From a virus, in UHGV virus genome UHGV-0206032: DNA of 14,762 nt; one strand, 5' to 3'. Each line of letters opens with the position of its first letter. Position 1 is the first letter of the stretch. The translations under genes were made by a program, and so were the position numbers. The notes under the pieces were generated by a model. The model made no database searches. It had not been told where the DNA came from and was given only the letters and a program-made list of their open reading frames with translations. Positions 1-14,762 of the stretch are shown here, piece by piece.

Positions 1-1263
1 ATGGCGGTCTCACACGGCTCCTTGCCATTCAAAGAACAGATCGACTATTTCCGTGGCAAGGTCGACCTACCGACTCGCGCATGGACTGACGCTTACGCTG
101 CTGAACACGACTATGCCTTTGTCGTGGCGGGTGCTGCGAAGCGGGATCTGCTGACCGACCTGCGGGGTGCCGTAGAGAAGTCCATCGCCAGCGGCACCAC
201 CCTGGAGCAGTTCCGCAAAGACTTTGACCAGGTCGTCGGTAAACACGGCTGGCAGTACCAGGGCGAGCGCGGTTGGCGCACCAATGTCATCTGGGAGACC
301 AACCTGCGCCAGTCGTACAACGCGGGCCGCGAAGCCCAAATGGCTGACCCGGAGTTGCGCAAACGCCGTCCCTATGCGGTCTATCGTCATGGCGACAGCG
401 CGCACCCACGGCCAATGCACTTGTCCTGGAACGGCATCACGCTGCCGCTCGATGACCCCTGGTGGGCAACTCATACCCCGCAAAACGGCTGGGGCTGTAA
501 GTGCAAAAAATTCATGCTCTCGGCCAGGGACGTTGAACGCCAAGGGCTGACGATTGGTCCGGCACCGGCCACTGAATGGGAAGATCGGGTCATTGGCCAG
601 AACAGTCCTGACGGACCACGCACAGTGCGAGTGCCCAAGGGCATTGATCCAGGCTTTGAATATGCACCTGGTCAATCACGCCTGACGAACTCCGTGCCCC
701 AGCTGCGCACCCGCGACTTGATACCAGCACCATCAGCAGCTCCGGTACCGGCAATAGGTTTACCCAACCGTCAGCCCACCGGTCCTTTGCCGCAACCTCG
801 ACAAATCCCAGCAAAGCGCCTGCTCCCGGCCAAAGTGTCTGCCCCCCAGGCAGTGACTCAGTTCCTGGGCGAGTTCGGTGCCACGGATGCCACTCCGGCT
901 GTGTTCCGTGATGTGACCGGTGATGCCCTGGTCATCGGGCGGGCGATGTTCAGTGATGCCAAAACCGGCGCAATAGCATTGGCCCAACAAGTCAAGGCCC
1001 GCGAGTTACCGTTGTTGGCTGAAGCCATTAAGGCACCTGATGAGATCTGGGCGCGCTTGGAATGGCAGCCAGATCAAGGCAAAGCGGTGTTGCGCCGTCG
1101 TTACCTGGCGCACGTCCAGGTCAAAGGGAGGGCTGATCCAGCTGTTGCTGTATTCGACCAGGGCGCAGATGGCTGGACCGGCGTTACAGGGTTTGTAGAT
1201 GACAGCGAGCAGTACCTTGAGGCATTGCGCCTGGGTGTCCTGCTTTACCGGCGTACCGAATAG
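1..1263 (+). CDS. Phage head morphogenesis protein, MuF (Mu gp30) family, with Pro-rich linker and C-terminal domain
   Basis: 420-aa ORF starting at window position 1. N-terminal ~230 aa resemble the MuF/SPP1 gp7 head morphogenesis domain as I recall it (DYAFVVAGA...DLLTDLR, NVIWETNLRQSYNAGR, PYAVYRHGDSAHPRPMHLSWNG, NGWGCKCK). RBS GGGAG for the next gene overlaps its stop. True start could lie upstream of the window. Confidence 0.8.
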   Translation: MAVSHGSLPFKEQIDYFRGKVDLPTRAWTDAYAAEHDYAFVVAGAAKRDLLTDLRGAVEKSIASGTTLEQFRKDFDQVVGKHGWQYQGERGWRTNVIWETNLRQSYNAGREAQMADPELRKRRPYAVYRHGDSAHPRPMHLSWNGITLPLDDPWWATHTPQNGWGCKCKKFMLSARDVERQGLTIGPAPATEWEDRVIGQNSPDGPRTVRVPKGIDPGFEYAPGQSRLTNSVPQLRTRDLIPAPSAAPVPAIGLPNRQPTGPLPQPRQIPAKRLLPAKVSAPQAVTQFLGEFGATDATPAVFRDVTGDALVIGRAMFSDAKTGAIALAQQVKARELPLLAEAIKAPDEIWARLEWQPDQGKAVLRRRYLAHVQVKGRADPAVAVFDQGADGWTGVTGFVDDSEQYLEALRLGVLLYRRTE

Positions 1264-1272
1264 GGAGCAGAC

Positions 1273-1836
1273 ATGGCTGGTTCAATGCTTGAGGTATCCC
1301 TCGATACAAGCCCAGTAGGCAAGGCTCTGGACGATCTGGTCGAGCGACTAGGCGACCTGACAACGCCGCTCAATGACATCGCCGAATACCTGCACCAATC
1401 GACTGATGACCGCTTTCGTCAGCAGGTAGCCCCGGATGGTTCGCCCTGGGCGCCACTTGCGCCCTCAACTTTGGCACGTAAGAAGGGAGGCCGCATCCTC
1501 CGCGCCAAGGGCACGCTTCAGGACACACTGCGTCACAACGTCAGCAACAATGAGCTGTCTTTCGGTACTGACCGACCATACGGTGCCATTCACCAGCTCG
1601 GTGGTAAGGTCCAGCATGCGGCCAGGTCACAGCAGGTCTACTTCCGTCAGGGTAAAGATGGATCGGTGGGCAACCGCTTTGTGAAGAAGAGCAAGTCCAA
1701 CTTTGCGCAGTGGGTCACCCGTGGTGCGCATGACTCCGAGATCAAGGCAAGACCCTACCTGGGCCTATCATCAGACGACGATATCGAGATACTGGCGATC
1801 ATCCAGGACTACCTTATGGCGCCAATAACAGAGTAA
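1273..1836 (+). CDS. Phage virion morphogenesis protein (Mu G / gp31-like)
   Basis: 187-aa ORF immediately after the MuF gene, with RBS GGGAGCAG 6 nt upstream of ATG. Size and position match Mu G; sequence resembles the virion morphogenesis family from memory. Confidence 0.7.
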   Translation: MAGSMLEVSLDTSPVGKALDDLVERLGDLTTPLNDIAEYLHQSTDDRFRQQVAPDGSPWAPLAPSTLARKKGGRILRAKGTLQDTLRHNVSNNELSFGTDRPYGAIHQLGGKVQHAARSQQVYFRQGKDGSVGNRFVKKSKSNFAQWVTRGAHDSEIKARPYLGLSSDDDIEILAIIQDYLMAPITE

Positions 1837-2087
1837 CGATGCAGAATCACGCAGGCGCTCTGATAGCGGCTTACGGGTACATCCGTCACCTGTGGATTGG
1901 TTAAACAGCGTTAGACCTGCGTTAGATTCAGTTGTAGCGGTATTGATAACGTCTTCGCGAGATATCGTGCGGCCATTCTCTACATATAAAATGAATTCAC
2001 CGCGCACTCATTCTCGTCCTTCCCCAGGCAAAAACCTTGCGCGGTCCTGAAATTACTTTCATTTAAGTACCCGCCGACACTGGCGGC
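1837..2087 (+). promoter_or_regulatory. Intergenic region, candidate internal late promoter/operator (analogous in position to Mu P_I)
   Basis: Only sizeable non-coding gap in the window (251 bp) and AT-richer than its flanks. Contains direct repeat GCGTTAGA x2 (1908-1915, 1919-1926), inverted repeat ACCGCGCA / TGCGCGGT (1999-2006 / 2038-2045) and a GC hairpin CCGCC-N6-GGCGG (2071-2086) abutting the ATG of the next gene. In Mu a C-dependent late promoter sits upstream of gene I. Confidence 0.3.
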
Positions 2088-3062
2088 ATGAAAACTCAAC
2101 TCGCCGCTAACTCAGAAATTTACAGCTCCGTCGAGCTTTCCGATGGGAAGGCCCCCGACTGGGTTGAACTTATCCCCGCAGGTCCGACCGTCACCGGTCG
2201 TGATGGCCGTGCCTGGCTGTTCGATGACATGGCCACCGAACTGGTGCAGTCCAATTTCATCAGTCGAGCAATCGATCTGGTCATTGACCGGGAGCACGCC
2301 ACACAGCTCCGTGCATCCGTTGGCCAGGAAGCCCCAGCCGGTGCCTGGGTCAAACAATTCGAAATCCGCGATGGCGCTCTGTGGGGTCGCGTTGAATGGA
2401 CGCCTCGCGGTGCTGCTCAGGTCGAGGCCAAAGAGTATCGCTACCTATCCCCAGTGTTCGACTACGACCTCGACAACAAACGCATCGTGCGCATGGTCAG
2501 CGCGGCGCTGACCAATATCCCCAACCTCATCATGACCGCCCTCAACCAAGAAGCCCCGGAGAACACACCAGTGAAACTTTCAGCTGCGTTTTTGGCACTG
2601 CTCGGCCTGCCCGACACCGCCACTGAAGAACAGGCCATGTCGGCCGCAAGCCAACTCAAAACTACCGCCCAGGCCGCCAACACCGAACAGCCAAACTTGG
2701 CGCAGTTCGTCCCGCGTGCGGACTACGACGCCCTGGTCGGCCGTGCCACCAACGCCGAACAGGCGCTGGCCAGCCAGAAGAAGGCCGAGCACGACAAGGA
2801 AGTCGATGCAGTCATCATCTCGGCTACTAAGGCCGGAAAGATCACCCCATCCACCGTCGAGTACCACCGCGCCATGTGCCATGACGAAGCGGGCCTGGCG
2901 CGTTTCAAAGATTTTGTGACAGCGGCCCCTGTCGTGGCTGCGGCATCGGAACTGGGCAACAGGAACCCCGCGAATACCGGCACGGCTCTCAACGCCGAGG
3001 AACAAAAGGTCGCATCGTTGCTGGGTATGAGCGAAGCGGAATTCATCAAGGGCAAGGCGTAA
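2088..3062 (+). CDS. Prohead protease / scaffold protein (Mu I / gp32-like)
   Basis: 324-aa ORF. N-terminal half resembles Mu I-type protease (GKAPDWVELIPAGP...GRDGRAWLFDD); C-terminal half is Ala/Gln/Glu-rich and scaffold-like. Lies directly upstream of the major capsid gene, as in Mu. Confidence 0.8.
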   Translation: MKTQLAANSEIYSSVELSDGKAPDWVELIPAGPTVTGRDGRAWLFDDMATELVQSNFISRAIDLVIDREHATQLRASVGQEAPAGAWVKQFEIRDGALWGRVEWTPRGAAQVEAKEYRYLSPVFDYDLDNKRIVRMVSAALTNIPNLIMTALNQEAPENTPVKLSAAFLALLGLPDTATEEQAMSAASQLKTTAQAANTEQPNLAQFVPRADYDALVGRATNAEQALASQKKAEHDKEVDAVIISATKAGKITPSTVEYHRAMCHDEAGLARFKDFVTAAPVVAAASELGNRNPANTGTALNAEEQKVASLLGMSEAEFIKGKA

Positions 3063-3090
3063 CTCCCCCTCTATATAAAGGAAGAGATTC

Positions 3091-3984
3091 ATGATCATTA
3101 ACGCCAGTGTCTTGAACGCGCTGTTTGTTGCGTACAAGGCCGAGTTCCAAAACGCGCAGGCCGCGACACCGACCGACTGGAAGCGTATCGCCACGCCGGT
3201 CCCGTCCTCATCGGCCAGCAATACCTATGGCTGGCTGGGTCAGTTCCCGATGTTCCGTGAGTGGATCGGCGACCGTGTTCTCAAAAACATGGCAGCGCAT
3301 GGCTACTCCATCACCAACAAGAAGTTTGAGTCCTCGGTGGGTGTCCCACGTGATGCCATCGAAGACGACGAGATCGGCGTTTATAAGCCGCTGTTTGCCG
3401 AAATGGGGCGTGCTTCCAGTGCGCACCCGGACGAGCTGGTATTCGCGCTGCTCAAAGCGGGCTTGACCACCACCTGTTACGACGGCCAGTACTTCTTCGA
3501 TACTGATCATCCGGTCTACCCGTCGACCGATGCGTCTGGCACGGCGGTTTCCGTCAGCAACTATCAAGACGGTACAGGCCCGGCCTGGTATCTGCTCGAT
3601 GTCAGCCGCGCCCTGAAACCCATCATCTTTCAGAACCGTCGCAACTACGATCTGAAAGCGATGACCGCAATGGACGACGAAAGCGTATTCATGCGCGACG
3701 AATACCGCTATGGCGTGGATGCCCGGGTGAACGTCGGCTTCGGCTTCTGGCAGTTCGCTTACTGCTCAAAAGCCCCACTGACCGCCGAGAATTACGGCCT
3801 GGCTCGCGCAGCCATGAAGAACTTCCAGGCCGATGGCGGTCGCCCTTTGGGCATCAACCCCGGCCTCCTGGTTGTTCCATCCCAACTGGAAGGCGCTGCT
3901 CGCAAGATCCTGGTCAAGGATGCGGACAACGGCAACGAATGGGCAGGCACCGCCGAAGTACTTGCACCGGCCTGGCTGGGCTAA
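3091..3984 (+). CDS. Major capsid (head) protein, Mu T / gp34-like
   Basis: 297-aa ORF with strong RBS AGGAAGAG upstream. Size and position after the protease/scaffold gene match Mu T; sequence is consistent with the Mu-like major head subunit family from memory. Confidence 0.8.
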   Translation: MIINASVLNALFVAYKAEFQNAQAATPTDWKRIATPVPSSSASNTYGWLGQFPMFREWIGDRVLKNMAAHGYSITNKKFESSVGVPRDAIEDDEIGVYKPLFAEMGRASSAHPDELVFALLKAGLTTTCYDGQYFFDTDHPVYPSTDASGTAVSVSNYQDGTGPAWYLLDVSRALKPIIFQNRRNYDLKAMTAMDDESVFMRDEYRYGVDARVNVGFGFWQFAYCSKAPLTAENYGLARAAMKNFQADGGRPLGINPGLLVVPSQLEGAARKILVKDADNGNEWAGTAEVLAPAWLG

Positions 3985-3993
3985 GGGGGCGTC

Positions 3994-4548
3994 ATGACCA
4001 TTGTGATCACCTCGAAACATGACGGTTTTCGCCGCTGTGGCATCGCCCACTCCAGCGCGGCCGCGCGTTACCCGGATGACTTCTTTTCGGAAGCGCAGTT
4101 GCGGGCTCTGTCAAAAGAGCCTCAGTTGATCCTCGCTTATGAGGAGGATGAATTCGACCAGGTACAGGACCGCCGCGATGAAAACCTCCAGGAAGTCGAT
4201 GTATCGAAAGCGGCCGGCACCTCTGAAAGTACCTTGCAGGGCTTGGGTCAGACAGACCCTGCGGCAGTGGGTGACGCTGGGCTTAACCTCCAGCACGGAG
4301 CCAGCCATGGGCTTGATTTGCCGCAGGTAGGTGGTGTTGTTTCGGCAGATGAGGTCAAGCCTGAGCCAGACCTTGAGGCACTTTGGATCGCCGCGCTCCT
4401 GGAAGACGAACAACGGGAAGCGGCCAAACTGAACGCAGAGACCGAAACGCTTTGGGATGAAGCGATTGCGGAGGATGTACTGCGGGAGGTGGCCAAAGAA
4501 AAGGCGGCAAAGGCACCAGCAAAGCCTAAAAAGGCAGCGGGTAAATGA
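3994..4548 (+). CDS. Mu gp35 / FluMu-like small head-associated protein with acidic middle and Lys/Ala-rich tail
   Basis: 184-aa ORF with RBS AAGGGGG. N-terminal MTIVITSKHDGFRRCGIAH motif resembles the FluMu/Mu gp35 N-terminal domain; middle is strongly acidic; C-terminus is KEKAAKAPAKPKKAAGK. Stop overlaps the next start (ATGA). Confidence 0.5.
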   Translation: MTIVITSKHDGFRRCGIAHSSAAARYPDDFFSEAQLRALSKEPQLILAYEEDEFDQVQDRRDENLQEVDVSKAAGTSESTLQGLGQTDPAAVGDAGLNLQHGASHGLDLPQVGGVVSADEVKPEPDLEALWIAALLEDEQREAAKLNAETETLWDEAIAEDVLREVAKEKAAKAPAKPKKAAGK

Positions 4549-5036
4549 ACCTCTCACTGCCGTCCGCCAGCCAGCTCCTGGTCCGCTTTGGCCCTCGTGA
4601 TATCACCGAGGTTGCAGTCGCGGATACCGACAGGGTCATCGAGCCCGAGCTGCTGGTAGCCGCTGCCGCAGGCAAGCCATTGGATGACTGGTCTGCGGAA
4701 GATGTGGCCATCGCCGTCATGGCGTTGGCCAGGATCGCTGACGCGGTCACTCGGTCGCGTAGTGAGGTTTCGTTTTACCTGCGGTTCCGTGCGGCTGGCG
4801 AAGATGCTCCCGAATGGGTCACCGATGACCTGGCCGAGATCGCTCGCTACCACCTGTACGACGATGCCGGAAAGGAAGAGTCGACTGTGCGGGTGCTCTA
4901 CAAGGACGTGATAAAGCGCCTTGAAACTCTGGCCAAGGAAGACAAGGAGCGTGGAGCCGCCGAGGCAGGCCGGTCGGGCATGCAGCTCACCAGTCAGCCA
5001 CGACTAATGTCTCGCACCACCTTGAGGTCGCTCTGA
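4545..5036 (+). CDS. Head-tail joining / head completion protein (Mu gp36-like, DUF1320-type)
   Basis: 163-aa ORF, ATGA-coupled to the upstream gene and TGATG-coupled to the downstream gene. N-terminus (LLVRFGPRDITEVA) resembles the gp36-family start motif; position matches Mu J/gp36. Confidence 0.5.
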   Translation: MNLSLPSASQLLVRFGPRDITEVAVADTDRVIEPELLVAAAAGKPLDDWSAEDVAIAVMALARIADAVTRSRSEVSFYLRFRAAGEDAPEWVTDDLAEIARYHLYDDAGKEESTVRVLYKDVIKRLETLAKEDKERGAAEAGRSGMQLTSQPRLMSRTTLRSL

Positions 5037-5602
5037 TGTTGGGCGAGCTGGAAGACCTGATCGAGGCGCGCCTGAAGGAACTGACGGCCAAGATCCCGCG
5101 CCTGGCCGTGGAAAGCTACGGCGGTGAATTGAGCGACCCGGACCTGTTGCCTGGGTTGCTCAAACGTTGCCCGGCTGTACTGGTCATGGTGCCCAAGGTG
5201 ACGTTTCAGCGGCGTAGTCAAAATCGCTACACGGTGCCGATTACCTTCCGCCTGGTCATTGCCACACGTCACCCCCGTGGCGAACGGGAAACCCGGCGGG
5301 GTAGCGGCCCAAAGGACGTGGGTAGCTACGACCTATGGGAAGCCTGCATGCATCAACTGGTGGAATGGCAGCCTTGGGTAGATCGTGCAGCTATTCGTCC
5401 GACCGAGCTTTCCAACCTGGTCAACGGCAAGTTGGCCAGCGACCACCTCTCAGTCCTGGGGCAATCGTTCGTCATCGAACTGGATTGGGAAAAACCGAAA
5501 GAGGCTCTGCCTGACTTCCTGGGCGTCAGCTTGGAATACCACACCCCATCGGATAACCCCGAGCCGGTGGCCACCGACATCATCGAACTGAGGGACGTGT
5601 AA
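5036..5602 (+). CDS. Head-tail joining protein (Mu gp37-like, DUF1834-type)
   Basis: 188-aa ORF, start overlaps the previous stop (TGATG). Position and size match Mu gp37/K analogues. Confidence 0.5.
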   Translation: MLGELEDLIEARLKELTAKIPRLAVESYGGELSDPDLLPGLLKRCPAVLVMVPKVTFQRRSQNRYTVPITFRLVIATRHPRGERETRRGSGPKDVGSYDLWEACMHQLVEWQPWVDRAAIRPTELSNLVNGKLASDHLSVLGQSFVIELDWEKPKEALPDFLGVSLEYHTPSDNPEPVATDIIELRDV

Positions 5603-5793
5603 TGCACGTTATCGCCGCACCTGGTCATCGGGTGCCCATGGATGAAGATCCGTACAAGTACATCGAAGAGGCCGAGTCCGTCGACGTGCCAGATACCTCC
5701 TACTACCGACGCCGCTTGGCGGCTGGTGAACTGCTCGCCGCGAAGAAACCACGCGGCAGTGCCAAACAACTCGCACAGGAATCCGCTGAATGA
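5602..5793 (+). CDS. Small tail-associated protein (DUF2635-like, Mu gp38 position)
   Basis: 63-aa ORF, TAATG-coupled upstream and ATGA-coupled to the sheath gene. Motifs APGHRVPMDEDP and DTSYYRRRL resemble the small conserved protein found just upstream of sheath genes. Confidence 0.45.
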   Translation: MHVIAAPGHRVPMDEDPYKYIEEAESVDVPDTSYYRRRLAAGELLAAKKPRGSAKQLAQESAE

Positions 5794-6890
5794 GCATTTC
5801 CTTTGACACCATCCCGGCGTCGATTCGCAAGCCGGGCGTTTACATTGAGTTCAACACCAGCCTGGCGGTACGGACGCTGCCCACCAACAAGCAGAGTGTC
5901 TGCCTGATCGTGCCCCTGGGCGTCGATGCTACTGTTGCGGCCAACGTGCCTACGCCGTTCTACAGCGCAGCCGAGGCCAAAGCCTTGTTCGGCGGGACAG
6001 TGGCCGAGGAAATGGCGGACGCGTTTATCACCGCCTATCGGTACGCCTCCATCTCGGCCGTAGGTGTGGTGGTCGAGGGCGAAACAGAACCCGACATCAA
6101 GGCTGCTTTGGACTCGACCGCCATGGGTGGTTTCACCATCCTGGTGCCTGCCTGGTTTAGCCAGGTCGCACTCACTGCATTGCGCACGCACATCCAGACC
6201 TACACCAGTTCGATGGAGCAACAGGGAATCATCGGTGTGGCGGCGCTGACCAGCACCTTGTCGGCCGCGACCACGTTGGCCACGTCGCTGAACTCCGGCG
6301 CAATCAGCTTGGCAGTCCTGCCGGGAACTGCATCGACTGCGCGCCAGGTAGCCGCCGCGTATGCCGCGATGATCGCCTCGGAAGAAGATCCAGCGCGGCC
6401 GCTGAATACCCTGGTGTTGACTGGTATCAAGGTTCCGCCGGTCACTCAGCGTCTCGGTCGTACAGAGCAGGAAACGGCGCTGGCCAATGGTGTCACGCCG
6501 CTGGAGGTTGCGGCCGGTGATGTCATCCAGATCGTCCGTGCAGTGACCACCTACACCAAGTCTGCTGCTGGTGCCACGGACGTGTCGCTGCTGGATTTGA
6601 CCACTATCCGCACTCTGTATTACGTGCGTGTGGCCATTCGTGACCGCATCCGGCTGCGCTTCCCACGCTCGAAACTCTCCAGCAAGACGCCTGCGGCTGT
6701 TCGTGGCGAGATCCTGGACGTACTCAAGAAGCTGGAAGAGTTGGAAATCGTCGAAGAGGTGGACGCCAACGCCGATGGTCTGGTGGTTGAGCGTTCACTC
6801 CAGGACGTAAACCGCCTCAATGCAACCATTCCTGTCGATGTAGTCAACGGCCTGCATGTGTTCGCCGGTCGCATTGACCTGCTCCTGTAA
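5790..6890 (+). CDS. Tail sheath protein (Mu L-like)
   Basis: 366-aa ORF. N-terminus (TIPASIRKPGVYIEFNTSLA) matches the characteristic sheath N-terminal pattern; followed by a ~120-aa tube gene, as expected for contractile tails. Confidence 0.7.
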   Translation: MSISFDTIPASIRKPGVYIEFNTSLAVRTLPTNKQSVCLIVPLGVDATVAANVPTPFYSAAEAKALFGGTVAEEMADAFITAYRYASISAVGVVVEGETEPDIKAALDSTAMGGFTILVPAWFSQVALTALRTHIQTYTSSMEQQGIIGVAALTSTLSAATTLATSLNSGAISLAVLPGTASTARQVAAAYAAMIASEEDPARPLNTLVLTGIKVPPVTQRLGRTEQETALANGVTPLEVAAGDVIQIVRAVTTYTKSAAGATDVSLLDLTTIRTLYYVRVAIRDRIRLRFPRSKLSSKTPAAVRGEILDVLKKLEELEIVEEVDANADGLVVERSLQDVNRLNATIPVDVVNGLHVFAGRIDLLL

Positions 6891-6903
6891 GAGGTGATTT
6901 TAG

Positions 6904-7275
6904 ATGGCTGATAACTACGTAGGGCAGATCGTCCTGGAGATCAACGGCACCGATTATGAGGTGACGAGCGTTGAGCCGAGCCTTAAGACCGGGCGTAAGG
7001 TCGTCAAGACGATGAACCGCACAGGCCGTCCCACCGGCACGGCAAAAGGTATTGAAGAGCACGAGCTGAAAATCTCGGTGCCAATTCCGAAGACTGGCGA
7101 GCCAGACTGGCGGGCACTGATGGACGCCAAGCTGACCATCTATCCGCAGGACGGTGGCAGTAAGCGCCAGACCTGGACCGGGTGTTCTTTGATGGAGATG
7201 GGCAGTAAGTACCAGGTAGAGGGTGAAGCCACCCGCGACCTGACCATCGCCGCCCTCAACTACTACCCGGAGTGA
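6904..7275 (+). CDS. Tail tube protein (Mu M-like)
   Basis: 123-aa ORF with RBS AGAGGTGA. Size and position (sheath -> tube -> chaperone -> tape measure) match tail tube proteins. Confidence 0.65.
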   Translation: MADNYVGQIVLEINGTDYEVTSVEPSLKTGRKVVKTMNRTGRPTGTAKGIEEHELKISVPIPKTGEPDWRALMDAKLTIYPQDGGSKRQTWTGCSLMEMGSKYQVEGEATRDLTIAALNYYPE

Positions 7276-7279
7276 TGCA

Positions 7280-7666
7280 ATGACCGAGCAATCAAGCAAG
7301 CGCTGGGAAGGACTGAGCATCACCCGCGAACTCAAAATGGGTGTCTATTACTCCGGCCTGCGCCACAAGACCTTCACTTTGCGTGTTCCTGTTGCGGGCG
7401 ACCTGGTCGCCGCGCAGGAGCTGCACCCAGGCGCACCATTTCAACTGATCACCCTGGAGGTTTATCGCCGTCAGTTGTTGTCCCTGGGCGAGATTCCCGC
7501 CGACGCGTTGACCACTGAATTGCTCCTGGGCGAACTCACCGAGAGCGACCTGGCCATCATTGCCGATGCCGATGCCGAGCTGGAAAAAAAGCTCGCGCCG
7601 CCGAGCGCGGCAACGTCGACTGGCGACGAATCGAACACGCCTTCGTCCGCCACGGCTACCGGCTAG
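7280..7666 (+). CDS. Tail assembly chaperone (short, in-frame product)
   Basis: 128-aa ORF between tube and tape measure genes. Contains an in-frame A_AAA_AAG slippery heptamer at 7585-7591. Confidence 0.6.
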   Translation: MTEQSSKRWEGLSITRELKMGVYYSGLRHKTFTLRVPVAGDLVAAQELHPGAPFQLITLEVYRRQLLSLGEIPADALTTELLLGELTESDLAIIADADAELEKKLAPPSAATSTGDESNTPSSATATG

Positions 7667-7788
7667 AAGAGCTTCGCCAGATGACCAGGGCCGAGATCGA
7701 TGCACGTATTGATCTGATCATCGGCAAGGTCAAAGGCACCCGCTATGTCAGTCAGCGCCAGCGCAAGGCGTTGCCTAAACCCAAATGA
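7280..7788 (+). CDS. Tail assembly chaperone, predicted -1 frameshift fusion product (slip at 7585-7591)
   Basis: After a -1 slip on A_AAA_AAG the -1 frame stays open for 65 codons (ARAAERGNVDWRRIEHAFVRHGYRLEELRQMTRAEIDARIDLIIGKVKGTRYVSQRQRKALPKPK) to TGA at 7786-7788, ending just before the tape measure start. Mirrors the conserved G/GT-type frameshift of long-tailed phages. Confidence 0.5.
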
Positions 7789-7843
7789 CAGGCTCGACAC
7801 CGGGCCTTTCCTGTCCCTGTAAGTCCGTTTCCGGGAGTTATCC

Positions 7844-10261
7844 ATGTCCGATCTGCGCGTCGCGCTTCGTTTCCAGGCCCATGCGGGTAACAGTCGGCGC
7901 GAGATCGAGCAGATCAACCGTGACCTGCGCAAGGCTGGCAAGGAGGGCGCCAAGGCTCTGGCCGATGAAAGCTGGAAAGCGTCTTCTGCCATCACCAAGG
8001 TCGGCCAGGTCGGGGCCAACAGCTATAAAGTGATCCGTGCAGCAATGCGCGAAACCGCTACGGCTGGTTCCGGCACGCGCATCGAGGTCAGCAAGACAAC
8101 TGCTGAACTCAAGGATATGGCCAATGCAGCTCGCAAGGCTGCACGAGATGCGAAAACTGAGTTGCAGAACACCGACCGGCAAGGCGTGCAGCCCTTGCGC
8201 CAGAGCGTTGATAAGACAGAGGCATCCTTCCGGCGCATGGCACAGAACAGCGGTCGCAGCCTGCGAACTTTGAAAACCATCGCTATGGGTGTGCGTCAGG
8301 AGTTTGATCGCATCAAGGGGCTGGGCGGGAGCATGCAAGGGAAACTGGCTGGGTTAGGTGTGGGAGTCGGTGTTGTGTCGGGCGTGACATCAAGTGCAAA
8401 GCTGGACCGCCAGCTTATACGTACTCAACAAACTGCGGGCATGTCAGTTGAACAGCGTGAAGAATGGCGTGGTGAACAGTGGCGCTTAGCAAAAACCTAC
8501 GGCATTGAACGTGAGCAAGTTCAAACAGGGTTCGATACCTTGATCGCAAGTGGTATGTCCTACGATAAAGCGAAAGCAAGTTCCGGAGCTATCGCTCAAG
8601 CAACAGCAGTTACGGGGGCTGACTCCGGGATTCTGGCTAAAGCGCTTATAACTGGTGCGAGCGCTTTTGATATTGACCTCTCTAAGCCCAACGCTGCTGT
8701 AGACATCTTGCAAAAAATGATCGTTGCTGGCCGTCTGGGTAACGCTGAACTTGAGAATCTATCAAGCATTTTCCCTAAAGTGGGGCAGGACGCCAAGTCG
8801 GCGGGCATGTCCATGGCTCAGTCTCTTTCGTTTGTTGAAACGTTATCTCTTATTGAACTTGAACCTGATCGTCTAGGAACTCTGGCGCAATCGACTTTGC
8901 GTGCATTCAACAATGGTAATTACCGCAAGAGCGTTACGAAAAATACAGGCGTCGATTTTTTCAACAAGGATAAGTCTGTAAGGAATACTCAGGATGTATT
9001 TCTTGACCTACAGCACAAATACAAATCACTTAAGAATGACAAAGATCGCGCTCGATTCATGGATGTGGTGTTTGGAAAGATGGACCAGGACACGCAAAAG
9101 GGAGTTAAGGCGTTCTTGACTGGTGATCGACTGGAGAACTTTGCTAAAAGTACCGGGGACATTAATAACGCCAAAGGCGTTATTGAAAAGGATCTGGCCG
9201 ATAACATGAGCAGTTCGACTGCTGTCGGTTCTCGAATGAAGGCCAGCCTTGGCGAAGCCATCGACCGTATGGCGAAGCCATTGAACAAAGGCTTTGCAGA
9301 CCTCGGCAGTTACCTGCTCGATGATCTGAATTTGTCAGGCGAGCAAATGCTGGTCGGTGGTGCCGCACTGGGAGTCGGTGGCTACTACGCCGGACGCGGT
9401 GCCAAAGCAGGCGCAGGCGCTTTGCTCAACAAGTTTATGGGTGGACCGGAGACCTTGAAAAACATCGCCGTGGGCAAGGTGTTGGAAGAAGCCACGGGCG
9501 TTACATCTGTTTTCGTCACCAACTGGCCTGCTGGTGCGCCCCTCGGTATTGGCAGCGGTCCCGACCTGCCCAATGGTCCCAGTTCCGGTAAAGGCAACGG
9601 GAAGCCAGGTGGTTTTATCACCCCGTGGCTAGCACCCTTGGCTTTAGCTGCGACGGCCACGCAGATCGGCGGGGCAAGTGCGACGGCTACAGACGAAGGT
9701 CGCCTCGATGCTGCCCAGCGCAGCAAGCTGCTTAACGATGATCAGCGAACGTACCAGGCGTCCTTCTACCGCAACCGCATGGCCCTGGCCGACAGGAATC
9801 CCAGCCAGTCATCTGATTGGCTGTCCTCAGAGGCCCAACGCCTGGCGCACCATGAAACCGGCCTGACAGCTGCGGGCCTGCCCATCGATGGCGCAAACAC
9901 CTGGGCCCAAGGCATCGCCGGTCGTGCCCTGGCTGCGGGTGCCAACACCTTCACAGCACAACAACGCCTGCGGGACATGATGGCGCAATCCGGTACCAGC
10001 CAGCCTTCGACCTGGTTAGCCGACCAGGCGCAACGCCTGGCTAACCCGTTGTCGGGCGGCAGCATGGCTGGCTTTCCTGGAATTGCCGGCAACGGCTCCG
10101 CACCAGGTGCAATCGGTGCCAATCCTGCCGCACAAGCCGCCGAGGAACGCCTCCGCTCCTTGCTCACCCAGCCGCTGATCATTGAAGTGCGTACTGACTC
10201 ACGGATGATCCAGGCCGAGGTTGAGCGTCGAACTGATATTCAGATGAGGCGCGGCGGATGA
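7844..10261 (+). CDS. Tail tape measure protein
   Basis: 805-aa ORF with RBS GGGAG, downstream of the chaperone. Has Gly-rich/hydrophobic stretches, a conserved-looking central core and C-terminal repeats. Stop overlaps the next start (ATGA). Confidence 0.85.
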   Translation: MSDLRVALRFQAHAGNSRREIEQINRDLRKAGKEGAKALADESWKASSAITKVGQVGANSYKVIRAAMRETATAGSGTRIEVSKTTAELKDMANAARKAARDAKTELQNTDRQGVQPLRQSVDKTEASFRRMAQNSGRSLRTLKTIAMGVRQEFDRIKGLGGSMQGKLAGLGVGVGVVSGVTSSAKLDRQLIRTQQTAGMSVEQREEWRGEQWRLAKTYGIEREQVQTGFDTLIASGMSYDKAKASSGAIAQATAVTGADSGILAKALITGASAFDIDLSKPNAAVDILQKMIVAGRLGNAELENLSSIFPKVGQDAKSAGMSMAQSLSFVETLSLIELEPDRLGTLAQSTLRAFNNGNYRKSVTKNTGVDFFNKDKSVRNTQDVFLDLQHKYKSLKNDKDRARFMDVVFGKMDQDTQKGVKAFLTGDRLENFAKSTGDINNAKGVIEKDLADNMSSSTAVGSRMKASLGEAIDRMAKPLNKGFADLGSYLLDDLNLSGEQMLVGGAALGVGGYYAGRGAKAGAGALLNKFMGGPETLKNIAVGKVLEEATGVTSVFVTNWPAGAPLGIGSGPDLPNGPSSGKGNGKPGGFITPWLAPLALAATATQIGGASATATDEGRLDAAQRSKLLNDDQRTYQASFYRNRMALADRNPSQSSDWLSSEAQRLAHHETGLTAAGLPIDGANTWAQGIAGRALAAGANTFTAQQRLRDMMAQSGTSQPSTWLADQAQRLANPLSGGSMAGFPGIAGNGSAPGAIGANPAAQAAEERLRSLLTQPLIIEVRTDSRMIQAEVERRTDIQMRRGG

Positions 10262-11601
10262 GCTGGGCAGAGAACCTGCTGGACGCTTCCTTCCGTGGCG
10301 TCCCGCTCCAAGTAGAAGGCGAAAGCCTACAATGGCAACGCGCCCTGTCTGAGCATGGGACGCCGTTCAAGGATGGCGACCGGGTCAAAGACCTGGGCCG
10401 TGGTGCGCGCCGTATCCCCATGCAAGTAGTGGTGTTCGGCGTCAATTACGAGATCGAACTCCAGAACATCCTCCGTACCTTGAATACACCAGGTACGGGC
10501 GAACTGATCCACCCGATCTACGGCAGCATGAATGTCGTCAGCAGCACCGGCGAGGTAAAGCACAGCGCCGAGCGGCCAGACTATGCCGAGATCAGCATAG
10601 TGTTTGTTGAGGACACGCCCGACGCTCCATTCTTCGACCGGCAGTTTGAATTTGTCGATGTCGGCGTATTGGGGTTGGAGGATGAATACACCTGGCAGGA
10701 TGGCATCTTCGATCTGTTCGGCCGTATTGATTCCCTGGTCGGCGAGATTCAATCGTGGATCGGCGGGGGCTGGGTAGGACTGATCGAAAAGGCCCTGGGC
10801 TTGCCTGGCATTGGCCTGCGCTTGCAACAGCTGCGCTCGCAGATCATGGGTGTGGTGTCCGGCGTCGGGTCGATGGCCAAGCGGCCATCAGGGGCGTTTG
10901 ATCCCCTGGTCGACCTGATGCGCACACCCTCGGAGATCCGAGGCGCCATCCAGGGCAGCACGCCCAGTTCGTCAACGACGCTACTAGCTCGCACTGGCGT
11001 ACCCGTTAGCTTGCCTGGTAATGCCAGCCTGGTGGCGGATGCTGCGCGTGCGGGTACTGGCTTTCTGATAGGTGCCCGACAAGGTGTGGCACCCACCGTC
11101 GGCCTGCTGATCGACGGCGTACCGACCAATGCGGGCAGCGCCCTGGTGCTGCTGCCCGACGGAATGCCGGATGATCCGGTTACCGCTAACGGTTTCGCCC
11201 TGGTCGTCCTGGTCATCACTGAACTGGCACTGGCTCACGCCCAGGCGGTAGCCACCGTCATCGAGGACGAAGCCGATACGCCGACGTTGAGTCCATTAGA
11301 GCTGGAAGGCCTGGTTAATTTGGTGCGCTCGCTGGTGCAGTCGTCCATCCTTCTACAACGTCACCTTTTCGACGTAGAGACCGCACTGCCGATCATTGAT
11401 GCATTGCGCAACGTCGCCGCGTTGATCCAGGCCCGCGCCCGTCAAGTCATTTTGCAAAGTCCTCCGATGCTTGAGCGGGTGGTTGAGACGCCTGCAAGCC
11501 TACATTTGCTGGCTCACCGCTGGTATGGCGGGCCGAGTGGAAGGAAAAGGTCGAAGCGGCCGCTGCTCGCGTCGACAAGATCGCCAAAAAAGGCGGCATG
11601 A
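10258..11601 (+). CDS. DNA circulation protein (Mu N / gp43-like)
   Basis: 447-aa ORF. N-terminus (ASFRGVPLQVEG, LGRGARRIP, GTGELIHPIYGS) matches the DNA circulation protein N-terminal domain as recalled for Mu N. The 3' end is uncertain: its last ~40 codons overlap other frames (see findings). Confidence 0.75.
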   Translation: MSWAENLLDASFRGVPLQVEGESLQWQRALSEHGTPFKDGDRVKDLGRGARRIPMQVVVFGVNYEIELQNILRTLNTPGTGELIHPIYGSMNVVSSTGEVKHSAERPDYAEISIVFVEDTPDAPFFDRQFEFVDVGVLGLEDEYTWQDGIFDLFGRIDSLVGEIQSWIGGGWVGLIEKALGLPGIGLRLQQLRSQIMGVVSGVGSMAKRPSGAFDPLVDLMRTPSEIRGAIQGSTPSSSTTLLARTGVPVSLPGNASLVADAARAGTGFLIGARQGVAPTVGLLIDGVPTNAGSALVLLPDGMPDDPVTANGFALVVLVITELALAHAQAVATVIEDEADTPTLSPLELEGLVNLVRSLVQSSILLQRHLFDVETALPIIDALRNVAALIQARARQVILQSPPMLERVVETPASLHLLAHRWYGGPSGRKRSKRPLLASTRSPKKAA

Positions 11602-11650
11602 GTCAGACAACAGCGGACGAAATCCGGCGCGAGATCCTGGGGATGGCATC

Positions 11651-13204
11651 GTGAGTCTGCCCCTCGTCCTAGACAGCACCGCCACTTTGCTTGCCCCAGC
11701 GGTCTTACTCGACTATCAGAAAGAGTGGATCGGTATACGCGCCCCACTCAAGGTTGGCGAGAAATCCCGGCGTATCGGTCTCACATGGGCTGAGGCGGCA
11801 GACAACGTCCTGGTAGCCGCGTCCGAAAAATCGGCGGGCGGTCAAACTGTCTATTACCTCGGCTACAACCAAGACATGACCGTGGAGTACATCCAGGCAT
11901 GCGCCATGTGGGCGCGGGCCTATAACTACGCGGCCGAGCAAATAGAAGAAGGCATCTGGCCCGACAGCGACCCCGACAAACACATCAAGACCTACACCAT
12001 CGCGTTTCCCAGCGGCCACCGCATCGTCGCGCTGACCAGTCGCCCGTCCAACCTGCGTGGGCGTCAGGGCGTTGTCGTGATCGACGAAGCCGCGTTCCAT
12101 GCGGACTTGGCCGAGCTGCTCAAAGCTGCAATGGCTCTGTTGATCTGGGGCGGTGAAGTCCATGTGATCAGCACCCACGACGGTACGGAGAACCCCTTCA
12201 ACGACCTGGTCAACGAAATCCGGTCAGGCAAGCGCAATGGTGAAGTGTTCCGCTGCACGTTCGGTGAAGCCGTTGCCGATGGTCTGTACAAGCGTGTCTG
12301 CCTGCGTAAAGGCATTGGGTACAGGCTTGAGGATCAAATCGCCTGGGTGAATGACGTATACGACTTCTACGGCGATGCAGCCGACGAAGAATTAGACTGC
12401 GTGCCATCCCAGGGTGGCGGTGCCTTCCTCAGCATGGCCCTGGTTGAGCAGCGCAGTAACCGTGACGTGCCGGTACTGCGCCTGGCATACCCGCAGGGTT
12501 ACGAAACCATCGCCGAACACTTGCGCCTGGCCGAGTCCCTGGAGTGGTGCGAAGAGCATTTGCTCCCGCTGCTTTCGGCCATTCCCCTGGACGTTCAGAG
12601 CTTCTATGGCATGGACTTCGGGCGCTCCGGAGACCTCTCGGTCTTCTGGCCATTGCTCAAAGAGCAGAATCTGCGCAAACGCACGCCCTTTGTGGTCGAG
12701 CTGCGTAACGTCCCGTTCAAGCAACAACTCCAGATTAAGTTTTACATCATTCGTCGCTTACCCAACTTCCTCAAAGGCGCCGACGACGCCAGGGGCAACG
12801 GCTCGCAACTGTCGGAAGACACTGCCGTCGAGTTCGGCTTCAACCGCATCGAGCGTGTGATGCTCACCGAGGGCTGGTATCGCGACAACATGCCGCCGTT
12901 CAAGGCCGCCCTGGAAGATGACACCTTCTACGACATCCCGGCCGACAAGGATGTGGTTAGCGACGTGCGTGCCTTTCGGATGGTCAAGGGCGTGGCTCGC
13001 ATCCCCGAAAAGCGCACCAACGAAAAGGGCGAAAAGTCCGGACCGAAGCGCCATGGCGACGCCGGTATCGCGGCCGTACTGGCCGACTACGCCTCTCGTC
13101 AAGATGTCGAAATCTTCGAATATCACCGCGTCCAGCCAGCCGTCCAGCATGATCGCGAGATCAAGCACGGGGCTGGGTGGCGCTCTCAGAAAGGCATTTG
13201 GTAA
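11651..13204 (+). CDS. Terminase large subunit (Mu gp28-like)
   Basis: Frame of track ORF 11471..13204, but start proposed at GTG 11651 (RBS GGGGA 7 nt upstream); the upstream in-frame part is Arg-rich junk overlapping gene N. Motifs: LLDYQKEW near N-terminus, Walker-B-like VVVIDEAAF, ISTHDG, nuclease-domain-like GMDFGRSGDLSV, C-terminal RHGDAGIAAVLA. Confidence 0.75.
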   Translation: MSLPLVLDSTATLLAPAVLLDYQKEWIGIRAPLKVGEKSRRIGLTWAEAADNVLVAASEKSAGGQTVYYLGYNQDMTVEYIQACAMWARAYNYAAEQIEEGIWPDSDPDKHIKTYTIAFPSGHRIVALTSRPSNLRGRQGVVVIDEAAFHADLAELLKAAMALLIWGGEVHVISTHDGTENPFNDLVNEIRSGKRNGEVFRCTFGEAVADGLYKRVCLRKGIGYRLEDQIAWVNDVYDFYGDAADEELDCVPSQGGGAFLSMALVEQRSNRDVPVLRLAYPQGYETIAEHLRLAESLEWCEEHLLPLLSAIPLDVQSFYGMDFGRSGDLSVFWPLLKEQNLRKRTPFVVELRNVPFKQQLQIKFYIIRRLPNFLKGADDARGNGSQLSEDTAVEFGFNRIERVMLTEGWYRDNMPPFKAALEDDTFYDIPADKDVVSDVRAFRMVKGVARIPEKRTNEKGEKSGPKRHGDAGIAAVLADYASRQDVEIFEYHRVQPAVQHDREIKHGAGWRSQKGIW

Positions 13205-14760
13205 TGGCTGACTCCAAAATCGTCGACCAGTACGGTCGCCCGATCCAGTACGACAAACTCACGGAAGAGCTGGCAGTTGCCCGCACCACCGGCATTCGCC
13301 AGATTTGGCACCAGTCGGTGGCCAACGGCCTGACACCTCAGCGTCTGGCGAGTATTTTGCGGGCCGCTGCCGAGGGATCAGCTAATGACTACCTGACCCT
13401 TGCTGAGGAAATGGAAGAACGGGATCTGCATTATGCCTCGGTGTTAGGCACACGTAAGCTGGCAGTGGCCGGGTTGTCGGTTCGGATCGAGGCAGCCAGC
13501 GACGATCCCGAGGACGTACGCCGGGCCGATCAGCTCAAGGAGCTAGTTGACTCTCCCGAGTTTGGCGAGCTTCAGGCGGACCTGACTGACGCCATGGGCA
13601 AAGGCTATGCCGTCTCCGAAATCATGTGGGACCGTAGTGGTAAGACCTGGAATCCTGAGCGTTTTGAACCCCGCGATCAGCGATTCTTCCAATTTGACCG
13701 TGAAACCGGCCGGGAGCTGCGCCTGCTCGATGAGGCTGATCCGATCAATGGTGTTGCCCTGGCTCCGTACAAATTCATTGTTCATCTGCCGCGTATCCGC
13801 TCTGGTCTTCCGATCCGGGGCGGCCTGGCGCGCCTCGCGGCTGTTGGCTACATGTGCAAGGCCTGGACTTGGAAGGACTGGATGGGCTTTGCTGACATCT
13901 TCGGCATGCCGATGCGCGTCGGCCGGTACGGCGCAGGTGCGAGCAAGGAAGACATCAGCACTCTGATGTCTGCGGTGGCCAACCTGGGCAGCGATGCAGC
14001 AGCGGTGATCCCGGACAGCATGCGCATTGAGTTTACCCAGGCCGCCAATGTGGGCGGTGCCGGGGACTTCTTCAAAGGGCTGGCCGAATGGTGGGATAAA
14101 CAAGTCAGTAAGGCCGTAGTCGGTCAGACCATGTCCACCGACGACGGCTCCAGCCAAGCCCAGGCAACGATTCATAACGAAGTTCGTATAGACCTACTGC
14201 AAGCCGATGCCAAGGCCGAATCCAACACCTTGAACCGCTACTTTGTGCGGCCCTGGTGCGATCTGAACTTTGCACCTGGTCGTCCGTATCCGCGGCTGAT
14301 CATTGATGTGCCAAAGCCAGAAAACACCAAGATCCTGATCGAGGCACTCAAGACACTCGTTCCGTTAGGGTTGAAGGTCGAGCAGTCCGTAATCCGCGAC
14401 AAGCTCAATATCCCGGCTCCGGCCGAGGGTGCCGAACTGCTGGGCATCCCGCCACCCGTTGCCACTCCTGCGCTGGCCCAGGCTACCAACAGCGAGCAAA
14501 AGCCAGCCAAGCCGGTGGTAATGCCGGACATCGTGGATAACCAGGTGCGGACGCTTGAGCGGACTGTGGGGGTCTATATGGATGACATGGTCGAGCAGAT
14601 CAAGGAACTACTCGACACCGTCAGCAGCCTGGAAGAGTTCCGGGATCGGCTGATCGAAGCCTATCCAGCGATGACCACCAGCCAATTGGCCGATGCGATT
14701 GCTGATGGCCTGACGGCCGCCAGCATGGCTGGCCGCGATGACATTCTGAGAGGCCTGTAA
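13204..14760 (+). CDS. Portal protein (Mu gp29-like, DUF935-type)
   Basis: Start proposed at ATG 13204, which overlaps the TerL stop (TAATG), rather than the track's 13177. 518 aa, directly downstream of TerL. N-terminal region (IWHQSVANGLTPQRLASILRAAAEG...LAEEMEERDLHY) resembles the Mu gp29 portal family from memory. Confidence 0.75.
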   Translation: MADSKIVDQYGRPIQYDKLTEELAVARTTGIRQIWHQSVANGLTPQRLASILRAAAEGSANDYLTLAEEMEERDLHYASVLGTRKLAVAGLSVRIEAASDDPEDVRRADQLKELVDSPEFGELQADLTDAMGKGYAVSEIMWDRSGKTWNPERFEPRDQRFFQFDRETGRELRLLDEADPINGVALAPYKFIVHLPRIRSGLPIRGGLARLAAVGYMCKAWTWKDWMGFADIFGMPMRVGRYGAGASKEDISTLMSAVANLGSDAAAVIPDSMRIEFTQAANVGGAGDFFKGLAEWWDKQVSKAVVGQTMSTDDGSSQAQATIHNEVRIDLLQADAKAESNTLNRYFVRPWCDLNFAPGRPYPRLIIDVPKPENTKILIEALKTLVPLGLKVEQSVIRDKLNIPAPAEGAELLGIPPPVATPALAQATNSEQKPAKPVVMPDIVDNQVRTLERTVGVYMDDMVEQIKELLDTVSSLEEFRDRLIEAYPAMTTSQLADAIADGLTAASMAGRDDILRGL

Positions 14761-14762
14761 AC

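What the first reader, a model, noticed from the sequence alone, without database searches (positions are those of the whole stretch)
11598..11654. 18-codon relay ORF chaining N to TerL by ATGA and GTGA overlaps
The N stop (TGA 11599-11601) overlaps an ATG at 11598-11600 that opens an 18-codon ORF (MSQTTADEIRREILGMAS). Its stop (TGA 11652-11654) overlaps the proposed TerL GTG start (11651-11653). This could be a translational-coupling relay, or the 3' remnant of a small-terminase gene left at a recombination junction.
Basis: seen in the sequence. Interest (0 to 1): 0.35.

Follow-up and report, generated by a model that had tools for sequence, protein, structure and literature searches.

The report
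Small-terminase gene stub at rearrangement junction
The 18-codon "relay ORF" is the last 18 codons of a phage small-terminase gene (Mu gp27 family) cut off at a head-to-tail junction, so it is a leftover, not a new coupling device.

Summary
In detail: ATG 11598 overlaps the N stop, and 18 codons later TGA 11652-54 overlaps the GTG start of TerL.

The ORF is not a gene of its own. The frame-3 peptide 11487-11651 matches only the C-terminal end of Pfam Phage_Mu_Gp27 and of PHROG 426 ("terminase small subunit").

A 99.9%-identical intact Pseudomonas Mu-like phage contig (L001) has the normal order: gp27 (170 aa), TerL, portal, F, then the head and tail genes, N (456 aa), then the baseplate. There gp27 ends ...KKGGMSQTTADEIRREILGMAS* with the same GTGA overlap onto TerL.

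The window equals L001 3679-19867, minus an IS, closed head-to-tail. N codon 424 is joined to gp27 codon 131 between 11530 and 11531, across a 5-nt microhomology (ATGGC).

- The GTGA overlap is the native gp27-to-TerL coupling, kept in all 15 related loci checked as GTGA, ATGA or TAATG.
- The ATGA is accidental. It is internal Met153, which is Leu in 111 of 120 relatives, and it happens to hold the first out-of-frame stop for truncated N.

The junction occurs nowhere else in the collections searched. Whether it is a real duplication or circle, or a chimeric assembly, is open. Interest is low.

The parts
10258..11530 (+). The N-derived part of the N gene (Mu gp43-like DNA-circularisation / baseplate-hub protein): codons 1-424 plus one base.
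   Evidence: Pfam DNA_circ_N 7.4e-24 and PHROG 184 'baseplate hub' 1.8e-68, reaching only profile position 381 of 411. Window 8982-11530 is 99.96% identical to L001 17319-19867. Intact N in L001 is 456 aa, and its last 32 aa (DHTRAAELIRLNPSLKTPHNIEAGEVLRAYAK) are missing here.
11525..11529 (+). 5-nt microhomology ATGGC shared by both parental sequences at the breakpoint. The crossover lies between 11530 (G, from N) and 11531 (G, from gp27).
   Evidence: Three-way comparison: N parent ...GGTATGGCG|ACCACA; gp27 parent ...AAAATGGCA|GGCCGAG; window ...GGTATGGCG|GGCCGAG.
11531..11601 (+). Out-of-frame tail of the truncated N' ORF. It adds 23 unrelated residues (GPSGRKRSKRPLLASTRSPKKAA) by reading the gp27 remnant in the wrong frame, and stops at TGA 11599-11601.
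   Evidence: Translations. The tail is absent from intact N in L001.
11531..11654 (+). 3' remnant of the gp27 (small-terminase-like, Phage_Mu_Gp27/DUF3486) gene: codons 131-170 plus the stop. It has no start codon, no N-terminal 130 residues and no promoter of its own.
   Evidence: Pfam PF11985 profile positions 132-173 of 173, E=4.3e-9. PHROG 426 positions 140-183 of 184, E=1.5e-9. Identical to the gp27 3' end in L001, L002, L003, L005, L007 and L008.
11598..11654 (+). The reported 18-codon ORF. It equals gp27 codons 153-170, starting at internal Met153.
   Evidence: Position 153 is Leu in 111 and Met in 9 of 120 cluster representatives, and Leu in 5 of 10 genomic relatives.
11651..13204 (+). 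TerL (Mu gp28-like large terminase, 517 aa), with a GTG start in the native GTGA overlap with the gp27 stop.
   Evidence: PHROG 2 'terminase large subunit' 7.4e-31. Called as 517 aa from this start in L001-L003, L005 and L017. The start position is conserved as GTGA, ATGA or TAATG in relatives.
13204..14760 (+). Portal (Mu gp29-like). The window end runs seamlessly into the window start (F gene, 1-1263), which shows that the window is one full period of a circle or tandem unit.
   Evidence: Portal_Mu 9e-106. The last 30 nt plus the first 30 nt of the window are identical to L001 6881-6940. 16189 nt (L001 3679-19867) minus the 1427-nt IS insertion equals 14762, the window length.

Best explanation
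The 18-codon ORF is the last 18 codons of a truncated gp27 gene. gp27 is the Mu-type small-terminase-like protein, family Phage_Mu_Gp27/DUF3486. The window is a 14,762-bp head-to-tail closed copy of part of the late (head and tail) module of a Pseudomonas Mu-like prophage. Its content runs 'gp27-TerL-portal-F-G-I-T-...-sheath-tube-TMP-N'. The closing junction joins N codon 424 to gp27 codon 131, between 11530 and 11531, across a 5-nt microhomology. The join is out of frame. N' therefore reads 23 wrong-frame codons and stops at the first TGA it meets. That TGA sits inside ATG-AGT, gp27 codons Met153-Ser154, and this gives the ATGA. The GTGA at the other end is the ordinary, conserved stop/start overlap that couples gp27 to TerL in intact phages.

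Shown: the identity of the remnant, the exact breakpoint, the native origin of the GTGA, and the non-conservation of the ATG.

Inferred: the junction most likely arose by microhomology-mediated illegitimate recombination, giving a tandem duplication or an excised circle of the 14.76-kb segment in part of the population of the source sample. If such a molecule is transcribed, ribosomes ending N' could by accident reinitiate at AUG 11598 and be passed on to the native gp27/TerL coupling site. That would be a by-product, not a selected device.
For: (1) Pfam PF11985 hits only profile positions 132-173 of 173, at 37.4 bits against a cut-off of 28. PHROG 426 'terminase small subunit' hits positions 140-183 of 184.
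(2) The intact relative L001 is 99.94-99.99% identical and has gp27 of 170 aa ending ...AEWKEKVEAAAARVDKIAKKGGMSQTTADEIRREILGMAS*, with the same cgTGAgtctg context. It also has N of 456 aa followed by baseplate genes.
(3) The window maps as three collinear blocks onto L001 (6911-15899, 17319-19867, 3673-6910). Their lengths sum exactly to one period of 14762 bp, and the end-to-start join is seamless.
(4) The breakpoint is resolved to the base and has ATGGC microhomology.
(5) The gp27/TerL stop-start overlap is present in all 15 related loci checked, as GTGA, ATGA or TAATG.
(6) Residue 153 is Leu in 111 of 120 relatives, and all 120 are 170-191 aa long.
(7) No 12-mer around the junction is repeated elsewhere in the window, so the circle was not closed by a collapsed repeat.
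(8) Two Logan contigs from run SRR8240678 are each 100% identical to the window and between them carry its three private SNPs. One of them starts exactly at 11531, the first base shared by the junction form and intact gp27. A de Bruijn graph branch between the two forms would give that start.
Against: The junction could not be found in any other assembly. The exact 26-mer and a wobble-degenerate 31-mer are absent from viral, metagenome and genome collections. The plasmid collection gives no match. The 447-aa N' product is not on record. Logan's own assembly of the probable source run does not cross the junction: its contigs end at 11469 and start at 11531, and the 61-nt gap on the N side is not what a simple two-form branch predicts. 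So the physical reality of the junction rests on the window alone. Nothing speaks against the remnant identification.
Confidence: 0.93

Rival explanations
1. The junction is not biological, and therefore neither is the N-stop/ATG overlap. The 14.76-kb 'circle' would be a chimeric or mis-circularised contig, for example from MDA or library chimeras or from a cycle-extracting assembler. In the real DNA, N continues to its normal end and gp27 is intact. The micro-ORF is still the gp27 3' end, but no molecule carries it as a stand-alone ORF.
For: The junction is unique to the window. An independent assembly (Logan) of a run carrying the same private SNPs breaks on both sides of the junction instead of crossing it. 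The circle holds under about 40% of the phage and lacks lysis, baseplate, fibre and early genes, so it cannot be a viable genome. Amplification chimeras also form at microhomologies of about 5 nt or more (background knowledge).
Against: No repeat of 12 nt or more could have closed the circle by k-mer overlap. An assembler therefore needed reads that physically span the join. Random chimeric reads are individually unique and rarely assemble. The Logan contig starting exactly at 11531 fits a graph branch in which the junction k-mers are present.
Confidence: 0.4
2. The micro-ORF is an evolved translational relay: a dedicated short ORF selected to pass ribosomes from N to TerL by termination-reinitiation at ATGA and GTGA.
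For: Both overlaps exist. Termination-reinitiation at overlapping stop/start codons is an established mechanism. There is an SD-like GGGGA 7 nt upstream of the GTG.
Against: The N-next-to-TerL gene order exists only at this junction. In every relative N is followed by baseplate gene P, and TerL is preceded by a full gp27. The ORF is 100% identical to internal gp27 codons. Its ATG is Leu in 111 of 120 relatives. The sequence upstream of the ATG (AAGGCGGC) is a poor SD. The local RNA fold is no more stable than shuffled sequence, z = -0.03. At 99.9% identity to the intact phage there has been no time for selection.
Confidence: 0.02
3. The window is a genuine autonomous small element, such as a satellite, a defective interfering mini-phage or a plasmid-like circle. 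It would be stably maintained and would use the stub to express TerL.
For: The contig is closed with exact periodicity. It carries a complete head-packaging set (TerL, portal, F, protease, capsid) plus sheath, tube and TMP.
Against: It has no replication, integration, transposition or regulatory genes, and no functional small terminase. N is truncated and the baseplate is absent. It has only three private SNPs against the intact prophage. It is not found in plasmid, viral, genome or metagenome collections.
Confidence: 0.04

Closest known systems
Bacteriophage Mu gp27/gp28 gene pair (small-terminase-like DUF3486 / Phage_Mu_Gp27 followed by the large terminase), as found in Pseudomonas Mu-like prophages
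   Same: The C-terminal motif ...KIAKKGG[LM]...EIRREILG... is present. The gene lies immediately upstream of TerL, and its stop overlaps the TerL start (GTGA). The DNA is identical to the intact relatives from 11531 onward.
   Different: Only codons 131-170 of 170 survive. The first 130 residues, about three quarters of the protein, are gone, together with the gene's own start. What lies upstream is a truncated tail gene (N), not gp26.
Head-to-tail novel junctions of tandem duplications or excised circles, formed by short-homology (RecA-independent) illegitimate recombination in bacteria and prophages
   Same: The end of a downstream gene is joined to the start of an upstream gene. There is 5-nt microhomology at the crossover. 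The repeat unit is exact. The sequence is near-identical to the unrearranged parent.
   Different: Physical existence was not verified. No reads were available, and the junction is absent from every other assembly searched.
False 'complete circular' viral contigs in metagenome catalogues (partial genomes closed by duplication junctions or chimeras)
   Same: The circle covers only part of a phage of more than 26 kb. It appears rotated to begin at an ORF start. It lacks essential modules.
   Different: There is no terminal or internal repeat that would explain a k-mer-based false closure.
Termination-reinitiation translational coupling at overlapping stop/start codons (for example ATGA or TGATG in bacterial and phage operons)
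   Same: The geometry at both ends of the micro-ORF matches, and the same geometry occurs at seven other gene boundaries in this module.
   Different: The upstream ATGA is not conserved and was not selected. It is a by-product of an out-of-frame fusion.

Membership tests
Phage_Mu_Gp27 / DUF3486 (PF11985; PHROG 426 terminase small subunit) | Profile match above the curated cut-off | tested here: met
   The frame-3 peptide 11487-11651 scores 37.4 bits against a cut-off of 28, E=4.3e-9. PHROG 426 gives E=1.5e-9.
Phage_Mu_Gp27 / DUF3486 (PF11985; PHROG 426 terminase small subunit) | Full-length protein of about 170 aa covering the whole profile, including the N-terminal region | tested here: not met
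   Only profile positions 132-173 of 173 are present. Intact relatives are 170-191 aa. The window sequence is a gene fragment, not a functional member.
Phage_Mu_Gp27 / DUF3486 (PF11985; PHROG 426 terminase small subunit) | Lies directly upstream of the Mu-type TerL, with its stop overlapping or abutting the TerL start | tested here: met
   GTGA at 11651-11654, identical to L001. Relatives have GTGA, ATGA or TAATG.
Dedicated coupling micro-ORF (relay / leader-type short ORF) | Present as a free-standing short ORF in related elements | tested here: not met
   In all 15 related loci the 18 codons lie inside a gp27 ORF: full length (170-184 aa) in 12 loci, cut by the contig end in L003 and L005 and reduced to 40 residues in L017. 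The top 120 of 807 homologues are 170-191 aa.
Dedicated coupling micro-ORF (relay / leader-type short ORF) | Conserved start codon | tested here: not met
   Position 153 is Leu in 111 and Met in 9 of 120 representatives, and Leu in 5 of 10 genomic loci.
Dedicated coupling micro-ORF (relay / leader-type short ORF) | Downstream gene's translation depends on it (start site sequestered in RNA structure, reporter dependence) | tested here: inconclusive
   The predicted fold pairs CUGGGG with a downstream CCCCAG, but the energy is no better than shuffled sequence, z=-0.03.
Microhomology-mediated head-to-tail junction (tandem duplication or excised circle) | The end of a downstream locus is joined to the start of an upstream locus of an otherwise collinear parent | tested here: met
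   L001 19867 is joined to L001 3679, and all three blocks are collinear and on the + strand.
Microhomology-mediated head-to-tail junction (tandem duplication or excised circle) | Short shared sequence at the crossover | tested here: met
   ATGGC at 11525-11529 is present in both parents.
Microhomology-mediated head-to-tail junction (tandem duplication or excised circle) | The junction is supported by independent reads or assemblies, and the parental joints coexist with it | not testable with these tools
   No reads are available. The junction is absent from other collections. The only indirect hint is Logan contig SRR8240678_6337, which starts exactly at 11531.

The most novel reading that the evidence does not exclude
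The 14.76-kb head-to-tail molecule is real and is maintained or amplified in its Pseudomonas host. It would be a tandem amplification or an episomal circle of the head-tail module of a Mu-like prophage. The chance ATGA/GTGA chain would then keep the second TerL copy translated from the late transcript through N'. That would be a natural example of an instant coupling relay created by a single illegitimate recombination event.
Probability: 0.06. Interest if true: 0.3.

Novelty: not a real feature. Interest (0 to 1): 0.08.

Why it matters
It matters mainly as a caution. A neat chain of two overlapping stop/start codons looks designed. Here it is explained entirely by a truncated small-terminase gene at a head-to-tail junction in a contig that holds only part of a phage. 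Anyone using this 14.76-kb 'circular' sequence as a complete viral genome, or annotating the stub as a gene, would be misled. If the junction is real in vivo, it is a clean base-resolved example of a 5-nt-microhomology duplication or circle within a Mu-like prophage. That is a well-known kind of event.

Tried and rejected
1. I searched for the exact junction 26-mer in viral, metagenome and genome collections, and for a wobble-degenerate 31-mer in the viral and metagenome collections. All five scans found nothing.
2. I looked up the exact 447-aa N' product. It is not on record.
3. I searched the plasmid collection in case the circle had been deposited as a plasmid. No match.
4. A search of the phage collection gave only relatives at 88% identity or less. 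Their matches split at window 11525-11530, which first located the breakpoint.
5. A PDB sequence search with intact gp27 gave nothing significant, so there was no structural handle.
6. An RNA fold around the TerL start tested for structure-enforced coupling. It was not distinguishable from shuffled sequence.
7. A scan for repeats (12-mers) that might have closed the circle artificially found none.
8. I tried to learn whether intact gp27 coexists with the junction in run SRR8240678. The homologue search returned only cluster representatives at 91% identity or less, not the exact protein, so the look-up was not possible. A literature search for the run accession found nothing.
9. I considered a satellite or autonomous element and rejected it, because it has no replication, integration or regulatory genes and is 99.9% identical to the parent prophage.
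Full report
**Observation**

- The N-frame ORF 10258-11601 ends in TGA 11599-11601.
- ATG 11598-11600 overlaps that stop and opens MSQTTADEIRREILGMAS.
- The TGA of this ORF (11652-11654) overlaps GTG 11651-11653, the start of a 517-aa ORF ending at 13204.

**What the genes are**

Pfam and PHROG scans show that the window is the late module of a Mu-like phage. The order is:
- F/gp30, fused to a PBECR2 nuclease domain (1-1263)
- G (1273-1836)
- protease/scaffold I (2088-3062)
- capsid T (3091-3984)
- a FluMu_N protein, then gp36, gp37 and a DUF2635 protein
- sheath (5790-6890) and tube
- a gp41-like chaperone
- tape measure protein, TMP (7844-10261)
- N, which hits Pfam DNA_circ_N and PHROG 'baseplate hub' (10258-11601)
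- TerL, which hits PHROG 2 at 7.4e-31 (11651-13204)
- portal (13204-14760)

In Mu the order is gp27-TerL-portal-F-...-N-P. TerL following N is therefore out of place. Portal at the window end followed by F at the window start is the normal order.

**The micro-ORF is the tail of gp27**

The frame-3 peptide 11487-11651 hits Pfam Phage_Mu_Gp27 (PF11985, formerly DUF3486) at profile positions 132-173 of 173. The score is E=4.3e-9, 37.4 bits against a cut-off of 28. It also hits PHROG 426 'terminase small subunit' at positions 140-183 of 184, E=1.5e-9.

A look-up of the window's capsid protein found contigs of essentially the same phage in several independent runs. The longest is L001, a 26-kb contig (Logan SRR5677835_238). 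It has the canonical order:
- holin, SLT lysin and several small genes
- gp27 (170 aa, L001 3290-3802)
- TerL (517 aa, 3799-5352), then portal, F and the rest of the head and tail genes
- TMP
- N (456 aa)
- the baseplate genes: a gp44-like P, gp45, gp46, baseplate J and gp48, then the tail fibre

Intact gp27 there ends ...QKKWQAEWKEKVEAAAARVDKIAKKGGMSQTTADEIRREILGMAS*. The nucleotide context (ggcatcgTGAgtctgcccc) is identical to the window's. The 18-codon ORF is therefore gp27 codons 153-170, beginning at internal Met153.

**The breakpoint**

BLAST of the window against L001 gives three collinear blocks:

| Window | L001 | Identity |
|---|---|---|
| 1-8989 | 6911-15899 | 99.99% |
| 8982-11530 | 17319-19867 | 99.96% |
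| 11525-14762 | 3673-6910 | 99.94% |

- L001 has a 1427-bp ISL3 insertion with an 8-bp target duplication in its TMP gene. The window lacks it.
- L001 3679-19867 is 16189 nt. Subtracting 1427 gives 14762, exactly the window length.
- The last 30 plus the first 30 bases of the window equal L001 6881-6940, which is the portal stop, 2 nt, then the F ATG.

The window is therefore one complete period of a circle or tandem unit, rotated to start at an ORF.

At the closing joint the three sequences compare as follows:
- N parent: ...GGTATGGCG|ACCACA
- gp27 parent: ...AAAATGGCA|GGCCGAG
- window: ...GGTATGGCG|GGCCGAG

The crossover lies between 11530 and 11531, next to a 5-nt microhomology (ATGGC, 11525-11529).

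N keeps residues 1-424 (...LLAHRWYG). It loses its last 32 residues and gains 23 wrong-frame residues (GPSGRKRSKRPLLASTRSPKKAA). gp27 keeps only codons 131-170.

**Why the two overlaps exist**

*GTGA.* The same stop/start overlap of gp27 with TerL is found in L001, L002, L003, L005, L007, L008, L009, L010 and L015. Relatives L011, L012, L014 and L016 have ATGA, and L013 has TAATG. These relatives include Pseudomonas prophages with 79-89% gp27 identity and more distant MAGs. This overlap is the native gp27-to-TerL coupling, and it confirms 11651 as the TerL start.

*ATGA.* It is simply ATG-AGT (Met153-Ser154) read one base out of frame. It is the first frame-1 stop after the breakpoint.
- Residue 153 is Leu in 111 and Met in 9 of the 120 closest cluster representatives. 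All of these are 170-191 aa (807 homologues in total).
- Residue 153 is Leu in 5 of 10 genomic relatives.
- Whatever the fusion frame, N' would have been linked to TerL. In-frame with gp27 gives direct GTGA coupling. The TerL frame is open from 11471 and gives a fusion protein. The third frame gives this 'relay'.
- Stop/start overlaps are in any case routine in this module.
- The sequence before ATG 11598 (AAGGCGGC) is a poor Shine-Dalgarno. The GTG has GGGGA 7 nt upstream.
- The local RNA fold is no more stable than shuffled sequence, z=-0.03.

**Is the junction real?**

This is the open point.

Against a real junction:
- The junction 26-mer and a wobble-degenerate 31-mer occur in none of the viral, metagenome or genome collections.
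- The plasmid collection has no match.
- The N' product is not on record.

For a real junction:
- No 12-mer around the joint is repeated elsewhere in the window, so a k-mer repeat cannot have closed the circle. Spanning reads were needed.
- The window has three private SNPs (7978, 10978 and 12363, all A where relatives have G).
- Two Logan contigs from run SRR8240678 are each 100% identical to the window and between them carry all three private SNPs. L019 equals window 6886-11469 (7978, 10978) and L017 equals window 11531-14609 (12363).
- L017 begins exactly at 11531, the first base common to the junction form and to intact gp27. A de Bruijn graph branch between the two forms would produce that start.

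Unexplained:
- The N-side contig ends 61 nt short of the joint.
- Logan did not assemble across the junction.

I therefore put about 0.55 on a real head-to-tail junction (a tandem duplication or an excised circle in part of the population) and about 0.4 on a chimeric or mis-circularised contig. Either way the circle is not a viable phage. It lacks early genes, lysis genes, most of gp27, the end of N, and all baseplate and fibre genes.

**Comparison with known things**

- The stub belongs by sequence to the Mu gp27/DUF3486 small-terminase family, but it is a fragment. The full-length criterion fails.
- The join has the anatomy of a short-homology illegitimate-recombination product.
- The overlaps have the geometry of ordinary termination-reinitiation coupling.
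- None of this is new.

**Verdict**

- Interest is low (0.08).
- The most novel reading not excluded is a maintained mini-circle or amplification in which the accidental relay keeps TerL expressed. I give it about 0.06 probability and modest interest.

Noticed in passing
window 1-14762 (whole window): The window is exactly one period of a closed circle or tandem unit. It contains only part of a Mu-like Pseudomonas prophage, under about 40% of a phage of more than 26 kb. It starts precisely at the F ATG and ends 2 nt after the portal stop. It should not be treated as a complete viral genome.
   Followed up: yes
L001 15900-17326 (corresponds to window 8982-8989, inside the TMP gene): In the related contigs SRR5677835_238 and GCA_041691915.1 the tape-measure gene is interrupted. 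In SRR5677835_238 a 1427-bp ISL3-family IS with an 8-bp target duplication does this. In GCA_041691915.1 (L021) only the 389-aa truncated TMP is seen. The window has the uninterrupted 805-aa TMP.
   Followed up: partly
window 1-1263: The Mu F (gp30)-like head protein carries a C-terminal PBECR2 domain (Barnase-EndoU-ColicinE5/D-RelE-like nuclease, 7.9e-26). A virion morphogenesis protein is thus fused to a putative toxin or nuclease domain.
   Followed up: no
window 7978, 10978, 12363: The window's only differences from the other copies of this phage are three G-to-A changes on the + strand. They are shared with Logan contigs of run SRR8240678, which is therefore the probable source lineage. 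Otherwise the same phage, at 99.9% identity or more, turns up in ten or more independent sequencing runs.
   Followed up: partly
window 11469/11470 and 11530/11531 (contig ends of L019 and L017): Logan contigs of SRR8240678 stop at 11469 and restart exactly at 11531, leaving a 61-nt gap (2k-1 for k=31) just on the N side of the junction. The exact start at 11531 fits a graph branch. The stop at 11469 is unexplained.
   Followed up: partly
window 7280-7843: A gp41-like tail-assembly chaperone ORF (7280-7666) is followed by a 35-aa ORF called in relatives (about 7681-7788) and then a 177-nt gap before the TMP start. This is the usual place for a programmed frameshift in tail chaperones. I did not examine it.
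   Followed up: no
window 1837-2087: A 251-nt gap lies between G and the protease gene I. Gene callers place a 78-aa reverse-strand ORF there (1771-2007) in relatives. It has no family hit.
   Followed up: no
window 11471-11650: The TerL reading frame is open for 180 nt upstream of its real GTG start, from TTG 11471, so mechanical ORF lists report a 577-aa TerL. Relatives show the true start at 11651.
   Followed up: yes
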